NCBI RefSeq assembly: GCF_988242995.1 | Contig: NZ_OZ547043.1 | DNA length: 64,000 bases | Direction: 5' to 3' (one strand) | Part shown: piece by piece, positions 15,317-32,848 of the stretch | How positions within the stretch are numbered: position 1 is the first letter of the stretch | How the letters are laid out: every line of letters starts with the position of its first letter | Position numbers and translations under genes: made by a program | Notes under the pieces: model-generated | Seen by the model: the letters and a program-made list of their open reading frames with translations, nothing else | Databases searched by the model: none | Told to the model about the DNA's origin: nothing

Positions 15317-15741
15317 ATCCACCTCAATTAAAAATTGACCCTGTGAAAAATATGGTCGTTTTATAGGGTCGTCGTAAAAAAGTGACGACGGAAATAATGC
15401 GCGGCTATTTTAAAAACGAAGGCAAATCATTCGCCAGATAAATAAATCCAGTAAATTTGATTTAGGGCAACAGCGGGTTGCCCCATATAGTCATTTGTCT
15501 GATTGACAGTGTAGTGCAAGCGAAAGATTTAATCCTTTAGGCGTAATAAAAAATAATTTATCATGCTAATTATTTGATTTTGTTGTTTTTGCAGGCTTAT
15601 CAGCAAGAGGGAGTATAACGCGATTATTCGCTCATTTTTCAGACATTTGCCATGCTTAAATGTGATGTCATCACGTATTAGCAAGGCCTTTCCCGTTATA
15701 CTGCCAGCGTAAAGGATAAGTCACATATTTCTGGAGGGGAT

Positions 15742-17400
15742 ATGATTCTTGAGCGCGTTGAAATTGTGGGTTTTCGCGGTATCAACCGTTTGTCGTTGAT
15801 GCTGGAACAAAACAACGTCCTGATTGGGGAGAACGCGTGGGGTAAATCCAGCTTGCTGGACGCCTTAACCTTGCTGCTATCGCCAGAATCAGATCTCTAC
15901 CATTTTGAGCGCGACGATTTCTGGTTCCCGCCGGGAGATATCAACGGTCGGGAACATCATCTGCATATTATTTTGACCTTCCGCGAATCGCTGCCAGGCC
16001 GACATCGGGTTCGCCGTTATCGGCCGTTGGAAGCGTGCTGGACGCCATGCACTGATGGCTATCACCGTATTTTTTATCGTCTGGAAGGGGAGAGTGCGGA
16101 AGACGGCAGCGTGATGACACTGCGCAGTTTTCTCGATAAAGACGGACATCCGATTGATGTTGAGGATATTAACGATCAGGCACGCCATCTGGTGCGTTTA
16201 ATGCCGGTGCTGCGCTTGCGTGATGCCCGTTTTATGCGCCGTATTCGTAACGGCACGGTGCCAAATGTCCCCAATGTGGAAGTCACCGCGCGCCAGCTCG
16301 ATTTCCTCGCCCGTGAGTTGTCCTCACATCCGCAAAATCTCTCTGATGGACAGATTCGTCAGGGACTTTCCGCAATGGTACAGCTGCTTGAGCATTATTT
16401 CTCTGAGCAGGGGGCCGGACAGGCGCGATATCGTTTAATGCGGCGGCGAGCCAGCAATGAGCAACGAAGCTGGCGCTATCTGGATATCATCAACCGGATG
16501 ATTGACCGACCAGGAGGGCGCTCGTATCGGGTTATTTTGCTCGGCCTGTTTGCTACTTTGTTGCAGGCAAAAGGCACATTGCGACTGGATAAAGACGCCC
16601 GTCCATTGTTGCTGATCGAAGATCCAGAAACCCGTTTACACCCCATTATGCTTTCAGTTGCCTGGCATCTGTTGAATCTTCTGCCATTGCAGCGCATTGC
16701 CACCACCAACTCTGGCGAGCTGCTTTCGTTAACGCCGGTAGAACATGTTTGCCGACTGGTACGTGAGTCCTCGCGCGTTGCCGCCTGGCGTCTGGGGCCG
16801 AGTGGTTTGAGTACCGAAGACAGCCGACGCATCTCTTTCCACATTCGTTTTAATCGTCCGTCATCGCTGTTTGCACGCTGCTGGCTGCTGGTGGAAGGCG
16901 AAACGGAAACCTGGGTTATCAATGAACTGGCGCGTCAGTGCGGACATCATTTTGATGCCGAAGGGATCAAGGTCATTGAGTTTGCCCAGTCCGGGCTAAA
17001 GCCACTGGTTAAATTTGCCCGGCGAATGGGGATTGAATGGCATGTACTGGTCGATGGCGATGAGGCAGGGAAGAAATATGCCGCTACGGTACGCAGCCTG
17101 TTGAATAACGATCGGGAAGCCGAACGAGAACATTTAACGGCGTTACCGGCGCTGGATATGGAACATTTTATGTATCGCCAGGGATTTTCCGATGTGTTCC
17201 ACCGCGTGGCGCAAATCCCGGAAAATGTACCGATGAATCTGCGCAAAATTATCTCGAAAGCGATCCATCGCTCTTCCAAACCCGATCTTGCCATTGAAGT
17301 GGCAATGGAGGCAGGACGTCGTGGTGTGGATTCCGTACCGACGCTGCTGAAAAAAATGTTCTCACGCGTGCTGTGGCTGGCGCGCGGTCGCGCGGATTAA
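15742..17400 (+). CDS. ybjD: OLD-family ATP-dependent endonuclease-like protein YbjD (AAA ATPase + Toprim)
   Basis: 552-aa ORF MILERVEIVGFRGINRL...; Walker A GENAWGKSSLLDAL; stop overlaps convergent ybjX stop by 4 nt. Confidence 0.9.
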   Translation: MILERVEIVGFRGINRLSLMLEQNNVLIGENAWGKSSLLDALTLLLSPESDLYHFERDDFWFPPGDINGREHHLHIILTFRESLPGRHRVRRYRPLEACWTPCTDGYHRIFYRLEGESAEDGSVMTLRSFLDKDGHPIDVEDINDQARHLVRLMPVLRLRDARFMRRIRNGTVPNVPNVEVTARQLDFLARELSSHPQNLSDGQIRQGLSAMVQLLEHYFSEQGAGQARYRLMRRRASNEQRSWRYLDIINRMIDRPGGRSYRVILLGLFATLLQAKGTLRLDKDARPLLLIEDPETRLHPIMLSVAWHLLNLLPLQRIATTNSGELLSLTPVEHVCRLVRESSRVAAWRLGPSGLSTEDSRRISFHIRFNRPSSLFARCWLLVEGETETWVINELARQCGHHFDAEGIKVIEFAQSGLKPLVKFARRMGIEWHVLVDGDEAGKKYAATVRSLLNNDREAEREHLTALPALDMEHFMYRQGFSDVFHRVAQIPENVPMNLRKIISKAIHRSSKPDLAIEVAMEAGRRGVDSVPTLLKKMFSRVLWLARGRAD

Positions 17401-18389
17401 CCGCGAAACATCGTGGCCATTTGTGGCTGAATAGCGTCGAGCATCTCATAGCGCCGACGGTATTCAGCCCGTTTTTTACTGGCGATTTCGGCAATCTCTT
17501 TTCGTGCTATCTGTGCCGGAAGGCGGTAATGGCGTTCAGCATCACATACGCCGCCTACCGACTCCCAGAACGCGTTGTAATCAGCATGGATCTTGCCTTC
17601 TTTATCGCGATAACGCAGGCTGCGGTAAATATGTGTTTCATTGCTGACGGCAATGATCTGCTCTACCTGCAAACGTTGGGCAAACAGACAGGCCGCTTCC
17701 ATCACAAGGCGTTTGGGAAATAGCCCGTGGCAGGCTTTCGTCGCATTCTGGATTTCCTGATGTGGAATTTCCCATTTTGCGCCTTGCAGTCCGCCAATAA
17801 ACATTGTTCTTTCCCCCTGATATTCACACAGGGTAAACGTGATCTCTGCCAGAGGAATACCTTCGCTGTTGCGGAACAGGATTGTGCTGTCACCTTCTTT
17901 ATCCATTGAGATCATCATGGTCAGCTCAAGTGTGAACTGCTCGCCGTTTTTGCCTTCCAGCTTCGCCAGTTGCAGCCCGGGGGTATTCAAATATAAGCTG
18001 AATTCTTCCGCCGACATACATCCGCGGAGTAACGCATAATGGTAACGTAACGCCTCCAGCAATTGCTTACGGCTAAGATTCGCCGCAAGGTAAGGGCGAT
18101 GCAGACGCACAGGCAGTCGCGGCTGGCGCGTTAACAACACATTGAGATTAGGCCAGTGGGAAAGTTCGTTCATCCACTCAACGCTTAAACGCGGCATAAT
18201 CAACGAGCGCAGCAAAAATTTCTGGCGAAAACTACGGCGATGCCAGAATTTACCCGGCCGACACTGTCCACGTGCCAGACTAAGAAAAAGTGACAGGCTG
18301 CTGAGAGATTCAGATGGCGTAAAGGTCCGTTCAGTTAGCTGCGACATATTCATGAAATCAATGGTTATACATGACGTCGATTTCACCAT
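17397..18389 (-). CDS. ybjX: VirK/DUF535-family protein YbjX
   Basis: 330-aa ORF on minus strand, convergent with ybjD. Confidence 0.85.
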   Translation of the reverse strand: MVKSTSCITIDFMNMSQLTERTFTPSESLSSLSLFLSLARGQCRPGKFWHRRSFRQKFLLRSLIMPRLSVEWMNELSHWPNLNVLLTRQPRLPVRLHRPYLAANLSRKQLLEALRYHYALLRGCMSAEEFSLYLNTPGLQLAKLEGKNGEQFTLELTMMISMDKEGDSTILFRNSEGIPLAEITFTLCEYQGERTMFIGGLQGAKWEIPHQEIQNATKACHGLFPKRLVMEAACLFAQRLQVEQIIAVSNETHIYRSLRYRDKEGKIHADYNAFWESVGGVCDAERHYRLPAQIARKEIAEIASKKRAEYRRRYEMLDAIQPQMATMFRG

Positions 18390-25021: not shown

Positions 25022-25109
25022 GTTCACTGCCGTACAGGCAGCTTAGAAAGCCAACCGAAAGAAAAACTCGATTTTTATACCGTTCACTGCCGTACAGGCA
25101 GATAAAATG
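25022..25109 (+). CRISPR. Orphan type I-F CRISPR remnant: two 28-bp repeats and one 32-bp spacer, no adjacent cas genes
   Basis: Repeat 1 GTTCACTGCCGTACAGGCAGCTTAGAAA (25022-25049); spacer GCCAACCGAAAGAAAAACTCGATTTTTATACC (25050-25081); repeat 2 GTTCACTGCCGTACAGGCAGATAAAATG (25082-25109), degenerate in its last 8 nt. The repeat matches the E. coli I-F (CRISPR3/4) consensus as I remember it. Confidence 0.85.
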
Positions 25110-25508: not shown

Positions 25509-25596
25509 TGGCGGTGAGGGGGGGATTCGAACCCCCGATACGTTGCCGTATACACACTTTCCAGGCGTGCTCCTTCAGCCACTCGGACACCTCACC
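25509..25596 (-). tRNA. serW: tRNA-Ser (serW-like)
   Basis: Minus-strand sequence GGTGAGGTGTCCGAGTGGCTGAAGGAGCACGCCTGGAAAGTGTGTATACGGCAACGTATCGGGGGTTCGAATCCCCCCCTCACCGCCA: 88 nt, long variable arm, T-arm GGTTCGAATCC, encoded CCA. Confidence 0.9.
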
Positions 25597-32714: not shown

Positions 32715-32848
32715 CACGGAACAGGTGCAAAATCGGCGTATTTTGATTACACTCCTGTTAATCCATACAGCAACAGTACTGGGGTAACCTGGTACTGTTG
32801 TCCGTTTTAGCATCGGGCAGGAAAAGCCTGTAACCTGGAGAGCCTTTC

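What the first reader, a model, noticed from the sequence alone, without database searches (positions are those of the whole stretch)
15742..17400. Core-genome OLD-family ATPase/nuclease ybjD of unknown function
YbjD has the N-terminal ABC-type ATPase head (Walker A GENAWGKSSLLDAL) and a C-terminal Toprim-like region typical of OLD (overcoming lysogenization defect) nucleases. Relatives of this family are components of phage-defence systems (P2 Old, Gabija GajA). Here it is a stand-alone gene in a conserved housekeeping context, convergent with and overlapping ybjX by 4 nt, with no helicase or other partner gene. Whether it functions in defence or DNA repair is not established, as far as I know.
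Basis: partly seen in the sequence, partly recalled or inferred. Interest (0 to 1): 0.35.

Follow-up and report, generated by a model that had tools for sequence, protein, structure and literature searches.

The report
E. coli ybjD, a stand-alone OLD nuclease
This is the known E. coli gene ybjD, an ATPase fused to a nuclease and related to phage-defence proteins; it is an ordinary, already published gene, but it is inherited like a housekeeping gene and its natural role is still unknown.

Summary
Window 15742-17400 (+) is an intact 552-aa ORF, E. coli ybjD. It has the quoted Walker A motif, a full ABC-type ATPase (Pfam DUF2813) and an OLD-type Toprim domain. Its end overlaps convergent ybjX by 4 nt, and no helicase, retron or other partner gene lies nearby.

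It is not new. Schiltz 2019 used YbjD as the search seed for OLD homologues and listed it as Class 1. A May 2026 micropublication renames it oldB. That paper reports no phage phenotype for the knockout, and weak, Toprim-independent anti-phage effects on overexpression.

- ybjD is in 5424 of 5426 complete E. coli genomes and sits at the same locus out to Yersinia.
- It is absent from phage records. Its plasmid hits are mostly very large records carrying the chromosomal neighbours.
- It evolves like its housekeeping neighbours. The Toprim core is the most constrained part, with no amino-acid change between E. coli and Salmonella, and all catalytic residues are invariant across the family.
- Its nearest defence relative is a Gabija GajA subfamily, and its C-terminal nuclease module has the Class 2 layout. 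It is therefore a GajA-like protein without GajB.

The natural function probably needs the nuclease and remains open. Interest is low to moderate.

The parts
15742..17400 (+). ybjD coding sequence (552 codons plus TAA stop)
   Evidence: ORF list. 100% identical to annotated ybjD 'ATP-dependent endonuclease' in E. coli NY1601. Intact in 80 of 80 Enterobacteriaceae loci.
15697..15702 (+). -10-like hexamer TATACT about 40 nt upstream of the ATG; putative ybjD promoter element
   Evidence: The ATACT core is shared by 12 of the 13 properly registered upstream sequences (the window plus 12 loci from 10 genera) in a region that otherwise does not align; Buttiauxella L078 differs and L005 was mis-registered. 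The consensus promoter scan did not call it. Function is inferred.
15733..15737 (+). Shine-Dalgarno GGAGG, 4 nt before the ATG
   Evidence: Read from the sequence. GGAGG or GGGGG is kept in 12 of those 13 sequences; Atlantibacter L080 has GGGAGA.
15742..16866 (+). ABC-type ATPase region (residues 1-375, Pfam DUF2813)
15826..15849 (+). Walker A / P-loop, G29-E-N-A-W-G-K35-S36
   Evidence: G29 and E30 are invariant, G34 98% and K35 90% across 52 diverse family members. K35 is present in 80 of 80 Enterobacteriaceae.
16270..16572 (+). Helical insert in the ATPase (residues ~177-277); probable dimerisation domain
   Evidence: The AF2 model has helices 177-195, 202-224, 241-255 and 259-277. It occupies the position of the dimerisation insert described for TsOLD and GajA (PMC10568477). 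It is the fastest-evolving part (residues 50-280, dN/dS 0.085). The dimerisation role is inferred.
16606..16644 (+). Walker B and D-loop, LLLIE293-D294-P-E296-T-R-L-H300-P
   Evidence: E293 92%, E296 92%, H300 98% in the family; all are invariant in 80 Enterobacteriaceae. The E-to-H spacing of 7 matches TsOLD E276/H283 (PMC7049728).
16690..16713 (+). Q317...T322-N323-S324: H-loop position, with Asn instead of His
   Evidence: Q317 98%, T322 94%, S324 94%. Position 323 is N in 65% and H in 15% of the family, and N in 80 of 80 Enterobacteriaceae. It aligns with the GajA 'STHS' motif.
16867..17076 (+). Toprim core (residues 376-445) with metal ligands E385, E389, D438, D440
   Evidence: PF20469 E 4e-16. 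E385, E387, E389 and D440 are invariant and D438 is 98%. dN/dS is 0.012 across genera. There are 0 non-synonymous against 27-34 synonymous changes in five pairwise comparisons among E. coli, E. albertii, two Citrobacter and Salmonella.
17077..17397 (+). C-terminal helical region (residues 446-552) with second-metal ligands D472/E474 and putative catalytic K513
17397..17400 (.). 4-nt tail-to-tail overlap (TTAA) of the ybjD and ybjX stop codons
   Evidence: There is no room for a terminator. ExcludonFinder lists ybjD-ybjX as a convergent transcriptional overlap (PMC12288877). Tight packing is seen in Escherichia, Citrobacter and Salmonella, but Yersinia has a 137-nt gap and ybjX is absent in Klebsiella and Raoultella.

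Best explanation
ybjD encodes a complete and apparently catalytically competent OLD-family enzyme. It has an SMC/Rad50-like ABC ATPase head with a helical (probably dimerising) insert, fused to a two-metal Toprim nuclease. The second metal site (D472/E474) and a catalytic lysine (K513) come from a C-terminal helical domain.

The following is shown. The gene is a single-copy chromosomal gene, inherited vertically at one locus across Enterobacterales. It is under purifying selection as strong as its housekeeping neighbours, and selection is strongest on the nuclease core. It belongs to the DUF2813 subfamily, whose nearest defence relatives are a Gabija GajA subfamily. It is therefore 'Class 1' only by gene context and GajA-like (Class 2-like) by sequence and nuclease architecture, without a GajB helicase.

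The following is inferred. It works like GajA, as a nucleotide-gated nuclease. ATP binding to the head holds the enzyme in an off state. Loss of nucleotide, or a specific nucleic-acid ligand, lets the Toprim site nick or cleave its substrate, probably DNA. With Asn at the H-loop position, the ATPase may act more as a binding switch than as a motor.

Because the nuclease is the most conserved part, the natural role must use it. The published Toprim-independent overexpression effect on phages is therefore probably not the native activity. I lean towards a domesticated cellular role, such as surveillance of aberrant or foreign DNA or genome maintenance, rather than a classical mobile defence gene. 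This is not settled.
For: Architecture and fold:
- Pfam DUF2813 plus OLD-like_TOPRIM.
- AF2 model with pLDDT 87.5 and pTM 0.86.
- Foldseek top hits are GajA (E 1e-18 to 6e-19), TsOLD (3e-17) and retron Eco8 OLD.

Catalytic residues:
- Invariant or >=98% in 52 family members that are only 27-54% identical to YbjD.
- Invariant in 80 of 80 Enterobacteriaceae.

Core gene and vertical inheritance:
- Present in 5424 of 5426 E. coli genomes.
- Same lysO-(aqpZ)-ybjD-(ybjX)-macAB locus in 80 species and in Yersinia at 65% identity.
- YbjD distances track MacB distances (Pearson 0.75).
- No YbjD-type gene in 50,697 phage records.
- The one identical IMG/VR hit is a chromosomal fragment.

Selection:
- dN/dS is 0.060, against aqpZ 0.043 and macB 0.075.
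- The Toprim core is at 0.012, with 0 non-synonymous against 27-34 synonymous changes in closer pairs.

GajA affinity:
- Best PADLOC model is GajA PDLC00094 at 7e-80, aligned to the end of the model. The Old model scores 2e-24 and its alignment stops at residue 473.
- A locus whose proteins match PDLC00094 and GajB PDLC00114 end to end (E 4e-228 and 8e-266) carries a DUF2813 OLD that is 31% identical to YbjD over its full length.
- A second helicase-coupled example exists.
- K513 lies 39 residues after E474. The same gap is 28 in BcGajA and 54 in Bp OLD, but 7 in TsOLD and P2 Old (PMC10822852, PMC7049728).

Nucleotide gating: the K35A mutant keeps the phenotype and is more toxic (PMC13261556). 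This parallels ATP inhibition of GajA, as cited in that paper.
Against: - No biochemical activity has been shown for YbjD. The substrate (DNA or RNA), ATP hydrolysis and oligomeric state are all inferred.
- The published mutagenesis found the three Toprim acidic residues and the whole Toprim domain dispensable for the only phenotypes known (PMC13261556), so there is no direct evidence that the nuclease is active in vivo.
- GajA works with GajB; no partner is known here.
- Most DUF2813 contexts I sampled are stand-alone (9 of 11 informative), so 'orphan GajA' may equally be 'GajA recruited from a stand-alone lineage'. The direction of change is not resolved, and my tree is a crude neighbour-joining tree.
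- dS is near saturation between genera.
- No native-level phenotype of any kind is known for the knockout.
Confidence: 0.5

Rival explanations
1. YbjD (OldB) is a genuine single-gene anti-phage defence protein, as published. Its ATPase domain alone blocks certain phages, for example by binding or clamping phage DNA or a phage protein. The nuclease is accessory.
For: PMC13261556:
- Arabinose-induced YbjD reduces plaquing of Bas18 and Bas20 and the plaque size of Bas64-68 at a non-toxic inducer level.
- The delta-Toprim construct keeps the effect; the delta-ATPase construct loses it.

All close structural relatives are defence proteins, and PADLOC GajA and Old models match.
Against: - The knockout shows no change in susceptibility in plaque assays (PMC13261556). 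The effects are seen only on overexpression, are narrow, and do not need ATP binding (K35A).
- The gene shows none of the genomic hallmarks of defence genes. It is core and syntenic across an order. It is absent from phage records, and its high-identity plasmid hits carry the chromosomal neighbours. It is not in an island and evolves slowly.
- An accessory nuclease would not be the most constrained segment.
Confidence: 0.2
2. YbjD is a domesticated housekeeping OLD protein with a role in chromosome or DNA metabolism (repair, replication restart, processing of DNA structures). It would be analogous to archaeal Cran1, with no real role in immunity.
For: - It is vertically inherited at one locus and under strong purifying selection.
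- Stand-alone DUF2813 genes sit in housekeeping contexts in Vibrio, Motilimonas, Chitinilyticum and others.
- The ATPase head resembles SMC, Rad50, RecF and RecN.
- Cran1 (PMC12796447) is a precedent: a vertically inherited OLD that is not antiviral, where the ATPase rather than the nuclease matters for the overexpression phenotype.
Against: - The gene is non-essential and no DNA-damage or growth phenotype is reported.
- There is no LexA box upstream.
- There is no conserved linkage to repair genes at the E. coli locus.
- This overlaps with the best explanation in mechanism and differs only in role.
Confidence: 0.22
3. YbjD is an RNA (tRNA) endonuclease, like P2 Old and the PARIS AriB Toprim nuclease. 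Its toxicity on overexpression comes from tRNA cleavage.
For: P2 Old was long thought to be a DNase and is now shown to cut tRNA anticodon stems (PMC12445682). OLD Toprim active sites mirror RNase M5 (PMC6755086).
Against: - YbjD does not kill recBC(ts) cells as P2 Old does (PMC13261556).
- It is only 19% identical to P2 Old, and its C-terminal module differs from P2's (PMC7049728).
- Its nearer relatives, GajA and Bp OLD, cut DNA.
- The phenotypes reported do not need the Toprim domain.
Confidence: 0.06
4. ybjD is a decaying remnant of an old Gabija system and no longer has a function.
For: It has no partner gene, no knockout phenotype, and a degenerate ABC signature motif.
Against: - It is intact in 80 of 80 species and in 5424 of 5426 E. 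coli genomes.
- dN/dS is 0.03-0.06.
- All catalytic residues are invariant.
Confidence: 0.02

Closest known systems
E. coli YbjD / OldB as already described (Schiltz et al. 2019, PMC6755086; Atahualpa et al. 2026, PMC13261556)
   Same: It is the same gene. The ORF is 552 aa and its 5' and 3' ends match the published cloning primers. The window is 98.1% identical in DNA to K-12. Domain organisation, aqpZ/ybjX context and Class 1 assignment by context all agree.
   Different: Nothing differs in the object itself. This analysis adds the population and selection data, the family-wide invariance of the nuclease site, and the affinity to a GajA subfamily. These sit uneasily with a Toprim-independent native function.
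Gabija GajA (Class 2 OLD), in particular the subfamily of PADLOC model PDLC00094
   Same: - It is the best-matching defence model (E 7e-80).
- YbjD is 31% identical over its full length to a GajA that sits in a GajA-GajB operon.
- Both have a Toprim plus helical-domain nuclease with a distal catalytic lysine (PMC10822852).
- The K35A behaviour fits ATP acting as an inhibitor, as in GajA (PMC13261556).
   Different: - No gajB (UvrD-like) gene is adjacent in E. coli, in any of 80 Enterobacteriaceae, or in Yersinia.
- It is a core chromosomal gene, not an island gene.
- Identity to the solved B. cereus GajA is only about 15%.
- The H-loop position is Asn, not His.
Class 1 OLD nucleases: P2 Old, Thermus scotoductus OLD, Vibrio cholerae OLD
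   Different: - The catalytic basic residue is 39 residues after the metal-B Glu and sits on a helical domain, not 7 residues after it (PMC7049728).
- The PADLOC Old model aligns only up to residue 473.
- Identity to P2 Old is 19%.
- YbjD toxicity is RecBC-independent, unlike P2 Old (PMC13261556).
- The gene is not phage-borne.
Cran1, Class 5 OLD of Sulfolobales (PMC12796447)
   Same: Both are conserved and vertically inherited within one order and show no antiviral phenotype at native level. In both, the overexpression phenotype depends on the ATPase rather than the nuclease.
   Different: Cran1 is archaeal, essential, cell-cycle regulated and in an operon with a membrane protein. YbjD is bacterial, non-essential and monocistronic. 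No sequence comparison was made here.
Retron Eco8 OLD (Class 3) and PARIS AriA/AriB (Class 4)
   Different: No reverse transcriptase or ncRNA lies next to ybjD. The ATPase and Toprim are fused, not split as in PARIS.

Membership tests
OLD family (ATPase + Toprim nucleases) | N-terminal ABC-type ATPase with Walker A, Walker B, D-loop and H-loop positions | tested here: met
   G29ENAWGK35S; LLLIE293D; H300; T322-N323-S324 with Asn at the H-loop position. Pfam DUF2813 and AAA_15; conservation. The ABC signature is degenerate, as reported for OLD proteins (PMC7049728).
OLD family (ATPase + Toprim nucleases) | C-terminal Toprim domain with the conserved Glu and DxD, plus a second metal site | tested here: met
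   PF20469 E 4e-16. E385, E389, D438, D440, D472 and E474 are invariant or 98%.
OLD family (ATPase + Toprim nucleases) | Overall fold like solved OLD proteins | tested here: met
OLD family (ATPase + Toprim nucleases) | Metal-dependent nuclease and ATPase activity | not testable with these tools
   No biochemistry has been published for YbjD (PMC13261556 reports genetics only).
Class 1 OLD (defined by context) | Isolated gene with no helicase, retron or split partner | tested here: met
   Window ORFs and annotation; 80 Enterobacteriaceae loci; Yersinia.
Class 1 OLD (structural features of TsOLD and P2 Old) | Catalytic Arg/Lys 7 residues after the metal-B Glu, with no separate C-terminal helical domain | tested here: not met
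   Position E474+7 is an invariant Gly (G481). The invariant basic residue is K513, on helix 513-527 of a helical domain. The PADLOC Old model alignment ends at residue 473. The reference residue positions are from PMC7049728.
Class 2 OLD / Gabija GajA | [quoted passage not shown] | tested here: not met
   Downstream is convergent ybjX, then macAB. No helicase was seen in any of the 80 loci. By contrast, DUF2813 loci L092 and L095 do have one.
Class 2 OLD / Gabija GajA | Toprim plus helical-domain nuclease module, with metal-B ligands and the catalytic Lys on the helical domain | tested here: met
Class 2 OLD / Gabija GajA | Sequence membership of a GajA model | tested here: inconclusive
   PDLC00094 scores E 7e-80, but in two stretches, the best covering residues 260-549. 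True GajA proteins score 4e-228 end to end. YbjD is a relative of that subfamily, not a member of a Gabija system.
Class 3 OLD (retron effector) | Adjacent reverse transcriptase and msr/msd ncRNA | tested here: not met
   No RT ORF in the flanks. No Rfam match near the gene.
Class 4 OLD (PARIS AriA/AriB) | ATPase and Toprim on separate polypeptides | tested here: not met
   Single 552-aa ORF with both domains.
Typical anti-phage defence gene (genomic hallmarks) | Accessory distribution, island or mobile-element location, horizontal spread | tested here: not met
   Core gene at a fixed syntenic locus with housekeeping neighbours. Not in phage records; the top plasmid-collection hits are very large records or records carrying ybjX, and the other 180 matching records are <60% identical relatives. 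dN/dS 0.06.
Typical anti-phage defence gene (function) | Protects against phage at native expression | not testable with these tools
   The literature reports no difference between the knockout and its parent in plaque assays; effects appear only on induction, which was tested on the 68 BASEL phages (PMC13261556).

The most novel reading that the evidence does not exclude
YbjD is a Gabija-type (GajA-like) nuclease that Enterobacterales fixed as a core gene. Its invariant Toprim site would serve a cellular, non-immune function in DNA or RNA metabolism, possibly together with a housekeeping SF1 helicase (UvrD, Rep or HelD) acting in trans in place of GajB. That would make it a bacterial counterpart of archaeal Cran1 and an example of a defence module domesticated for housekeeping.
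Probability: 0.25. Interest if true: 0.6.

Novelty: already known. Interest (0 to 1): 0.3.

Why it matters
ybjD is one of the uncharacterised 'y-ome' genes of the best-studied bacterium, and OLD proteins are of current interest in phage defence.

The gene itself and its Class 1 label are already published, so the finding does not open new ground.

What is worth passing on is a tension in the data. The only phenotypes known do not need the nuclease, yet the nuclease core is the most strictly conserved part of a gene that behaves like a housekeeping gene across a whole bacterial order. This points experiments away from overexpression plaque assays and towards chromosomal active-site mutants and non-phage phenotypes.

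It also shows that the context-based OLD class names hide real relationships: YbjD is nearer to a GajA subfamily than to P2 Old.

Tried and rejected
- **ybjX as a functional partner: rejected.** ybjX is only 45-74% identical where present, evolves about seven times faster (dN/dS 0.415 against 0.060), and is missing from about 17 of 80 loci, including Klebsiella and Raoultella, while ybjD stays. The 4-nt overlap is not conserved: Yersinia has a 137-nt gap.
- **SOS regulation: not supported.** The best LexA-box match in the aqpZ-ybjD spacer is 12 of 20 and lacks the CTG half of the CTG-N10-CAG core. The only good box in the window is upstream of ftsK.
- **Phage- or plasmid-borne copies: none found.** The phage database gives only P2 Old, at 28% identity over 34% of the query. 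The top plasmid hits are very large records (0.5-5 Mb) or records carrying the chromosomal neighbour ybjX, most likely mislabelled chromosome pieces; a 64%-identical, N-terminally incomplete match on a conjugative Serratia plasmid sits beside ybjX and macA. The other 180 matching plasmid records are <60% identical. The identical IMG/VR hit carries aqpZ-ybjD-ybjX-macA.
- **A hidden helicase near ybjD: none** in the window or in related loci.
It returned only close (>=80% identical) Enterobacteriaceae. This was useful for synteny and selection but not for distant contexts. Those had to come from 12 single look-ups, so the sampling of distant contexts is thin, with 11 informative loci.
- **Literature:** other papers mentioning ybjD use the aqpZ-ybjD spacer as an insertion site or list the gene in expression tables, with nothing functional. 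A search for 'b0876' added nothing. The DefensePredictor supplements only use the YbjD UniRef50 cluster as a label for homologues.
- **Cran1 dataset:** I found no E. coli YbjD or DUF2813 entry in the held supplements, so its place among their clades U1-U11 is unknown.
Full report
**Observation**

The window holds one ATG-initiated ORF at 15742..17400 on the + strand, 552 codons. The TAA stop (17398-17400) overlaps the end of the minus-strand ybjX ORF (17397..18389) by four bases. aqpZ lies divergently upstream and macAB follows ybjX.

The 2.3-kb region is 100% identical to E. coli NY1601, where the genes are annotated ybjD ('ATP-dependent endonuclease') and ybjX. The window's surroundings are all housekeeping genes. 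These include the art operon, poxB, hcp-hcr, lysO, aqpZ, macAB, cspD and clpSA, then aat, cydCD, trxB, lrp and ftsK.

**Domains and fold**

- Pfam gives DUF2813 over residues 1-375 (E 2e-160) and OLD-like_TOPRIM over 376-440 (E 4e-16), plus AAA_15/AAA_21 at the N-terminus.
- NCBIfam has no specific model; only P-loop-level hits appear.
- An AlphaFold2 model built on 52 diverse homologues is confident (pLDDT 87.5, pTM 0.86).
- By Foldseek, the model is most like GajA (E about 1e-18), TsOLD (3e-17) and retron Eco8 OLD.

**What is already published**

Schiltz et al. 2019 used YbjD (b0876) as the query to collect OLD homologues. They listed the E. coli and Salmonella proteins among Class 1, the isolated genes (PMC6755086).

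A micropublication of May 2026 (PMC13261556) shows the following:
- ybjD is transcribed.
- The Keio knockout has no change in phage susceptibility.
- Arabinose-induced YbjD reduces plaquing of Bas18 and Bas20 and the plaque size of Bas64-68.
- The Toprim acidic residues and the whole Toprim domain are dispensable for these effects, while the ATPase domain is required.
- K35A keeps the effects and is more toxic.
- Unlike P2 Old, YbjD does not kill recBC(ts) cells.

The authors propose the name oldB. The object and its general interpretation are therefore already known.

**Population and evolutionary behaviour**

The region is present at >=95% identity in 5424 of 5426 complete E. coli genomes, with 5422 of 5428 places on chromosomes.

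In 80 species of Enterobacteriaceae, the gene is intact and sits in the same lysO-(aqpZ)-ybjD-(ybjX)-macAB locus at 80-99% protein identity. Yersinia has the same locus at 65% identity. Pairwise YbjD distances follow those of MacB (Pearson 0.75).

No YbjD-type gene occurs in 50,697 phage records. The only hit with more than fragmentary coverage is P2 Old, at 28% identity over a third of the protein. The high-identity plasmid hits are very large 'plasmid' records or records that also carry ybjX, consistent with mislabelled chromosome pieces; a partial Serratia copy lies on a conjugative plasmid beside ybjX and macA. The identical IMG/VR hit is a chromosomal fragment.

Nei-Gojobori dN/dS across genera is 0.060 for ybjD, against 0.043 for aqpZ, 0.075 for macB and 0.415 for ybjX. 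Within ybjD the values are:

| Segment | dN/dS |
|---|---|
| ATPase, residues 1-375 | 0.067 |
| C-terminal region, residues 446-552 | 0.061 |
| Toprim core, residues 376-445 | 0.012 |

In five pairwise comparisons among E. coli, E. albertii, two Citrobacter and Salmonella, the 70-codon Toprim core has no non-synonymous change against 27-34 synonymous ones. Synonymous divergence is near saturation between genera, so the ratios are approximate. The ranking of the segments is clear nonetheless.

**Active sites**

In 52 family members that are only 27-54% identical to YbjD, the following are invariant or >=98% conserved:
- Walker A residues G29, E30 and G34 (K35 is 90%).
- D-loop H300 and Q317.
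- The linker residues R362, H367, R379 and W381.
- The Toprim and nuclease residues E385, G386, E387, E389, D438, G439, D440, D472, E474, K513 and P514.

Walker B E293 and E296 are at 92%. The H-loop position is Asn in 65% of the family and His in 15%. All of these residues are identical in 80 of 80 Enterobacteriaceae. The enzyme therefore looks catalytically competent, and selection acts on the nuclease site.

**Which kind of OLD protein**

By gene context it is Class 1. By sequence and structure it is nearer to Class 2.

- The best PADLOC model is GajA PDLC00094 (E 7e-80, aligned to the end of the model). The Old model scores 2e-24 and its alignment stops at residue 473.
- The invariant basic residue K513 lies 39 residues after the metal-B Glu, on a helix of a C-terminal helical domain. 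This resembles Bp OLD (K562, +54) and BcGajA (K541, +28).
- In TsOLD and P2 Old the Arg/Lys lies 7 residues after the Glu (PMC7049728, PMC10822852). YbjD has an invariant Gly at that position.
- The C-terminal 177 residues superpose on the Class 2 C-terminal region 6nk8 over 164 residues at 2.3 A.
- One IMG/VR locus (L092) has a DUF2813 OLD that is 31% identical to YbjD over its full length. A UvrD-type helicase follows it with a 4-nt overlap. The two proteins match PADLOC GajA PDLC00094 and GajB PDLC00114 end to end (E 4e-228 and 8e-266). They lie between a HEPN/DUF499 gene and an Eco57I-like methylase.
- A second locus (L095) has the same pair.

Other DUF2813 genes are stand-alone in housekeeping contexts. 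Examples are Vibrio, Motilimonas, Chitinilyticum and several metagenomic contigs. In a crude neighbour-joining tree the family is compact and far from P2 Old (19% identity). The YbjD clade and the helicase-coupled pair fall in different sub-branches.

Profile searches put the family equally far from the solved BcGajA and TsOLD (E about 2e-20 each).

I therefore describe YbjD as a member of the DUF2813 OLD subfamily. This subfamily contains both stand-alone genes and true Gabija GajA proteins. Whether the helicase was lost or gained cannot be decided from my sampling.

**Mechanism**

The following is shown: a complete ABC head with a helical insert, and a two-metal Toprim site with a distal lysine, all under strong constraint.

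The following is inferred. By analogy with GajA, and from the published K35A result, nucleotide binding probably restrains the enzyme, and the Toprim site cuts nucleic acid when that restraint is lifted. The Asn at the H-loop position suggests slow hydrolysis, which fits a binding switch rather than a motor.

Because the nuclease core is the most conserved segment, the natural function should depend on it. The Toprim-independent overexpression effect is then likely a side effect of an abundant DNA-binding ATPase head rather than the native activity.

The physiological role is open. The genomic behaviour argues against a classical mobile defence gene. It fits a domesticated cellular role, for which archaeal Cran1 is a precedent (PMC12796447). 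No native phenotype is known, however, and defence against untested elements is not excluded.

**Regulation and neighbours**

- No LexA box precedes ybjD.
- A -10-like TATACT (15697-15702) and a GGAGG ribosome-binding site are kept in 12 of the 13 properly registered upstream sequences, in a spacer that otherwise does not align.
- ybjX is not a partner. It evolves fast and is absent from Klebsiella, Raoultella and others.
- The tail-to-tail overlap leaves no room for terminators, and the pair is listed as a convergent transcriptional overlap (PMC12288877).

**Verdict**

The added value is the contrast between the published Toprim-independent phenotypes and the extreme conservation of the nuclease, together with the GajA-subfamily affinity. 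Interest is 0.3.

Noticed in passing
window 25022-25101 (+), between clpA and tRNA-Ser (25509-25596): A minimal type I-F-like CRISPR remnant. It has one full repeat GTTCACTGCCGTACAGGCAGCTTAGAAA (Rfam CRISPR-DR4, 50 bits), a 32-nt spacer, and a truncated second repeat (25082-25101). From memory, this is the known orphan CRISPR locus of E. coli between clpA and infA.
   Followed up: partly
L097 1858-4883 and L099 810-4047: Two DUF2813 OLD genes that are 41% identical each lie next to a beta-CASP/RMMBL metallo-beta-lactamase-fold nuclease gene. The two beta-CASP proteins are 40% identical. In one locus the genes are convergent with a 4-nt overlap; in the other the beta-CASP gene is upstream on the same strand. 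This may be a conserved OLD/beta-CASP linkage in some lineage.
   Followed up: partly
proteins P0149, P0162, P0163, P0165, P0196; loci L101/L102: Giant DUF2813 OLD proteins of 1188-1867 aa. They have large inserts inside the ATPase head and C-terminal extensions of about 440-1160 aa with no Pfam match. P0163 sits near a 1020-aa unknown protein and DNA polymerase I.
   Followed up: partly
L087-L089 162-4882: In a Candidatus Binatia-like contig, a PhD/PIN toxin-antitoxin pair, a DUF2813 OLD gene and a family B DNA polymerase gene lie head to tail on one strand.
   Followed up: no
window 17397-18389 (-), ybjX; loci L001-L080: ybjX (VirK/YbjX family) is far more variable than all its neighbours: 45-74% identity outside Escherichia and dN/dS about 0.4. 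It is missing from about 17 of 80 Enterobacteriaceae loci. In Kluyvera about 1.1 kb is inserted between ybjD and ybjX.
   Followed up: partly
window 32753-32772, between lrp and ftsK: The only strong LexA-box-like site in the window is TCCTGTTAATCCATACAGCA (14 of 20 to consensus, with the CTG-N10-CAG core). From memory, this is presumably the known SOS (dinH) promoter of ftsK.
   Followed up: no
L090 30463-42301 (E. coli NY1601), absent from the window: The strain whose ybjD region is identical to the window carries an integrase-bearing island after clpA. The island includes DUF3987, an HTH gene, a 607-aa unknown protein, a TOTE-type primase pseudogene and a T6SS gene. The window instead continues with aat-cydCD-trxB-lrp-ftsK, so the window comes from a different strain.
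   Followed up: no
L092 135-3497 and 7890-11066: The Gabija-type DUF2813 locus is flanked by a 1120-aa HEPN_Swt1 + DUF499 protein and a 1057-aa Eco57I/MmeI-like methyltransferase. This is a small defence island on a contig that IMG/VR calls viral.
   Followed up: partly
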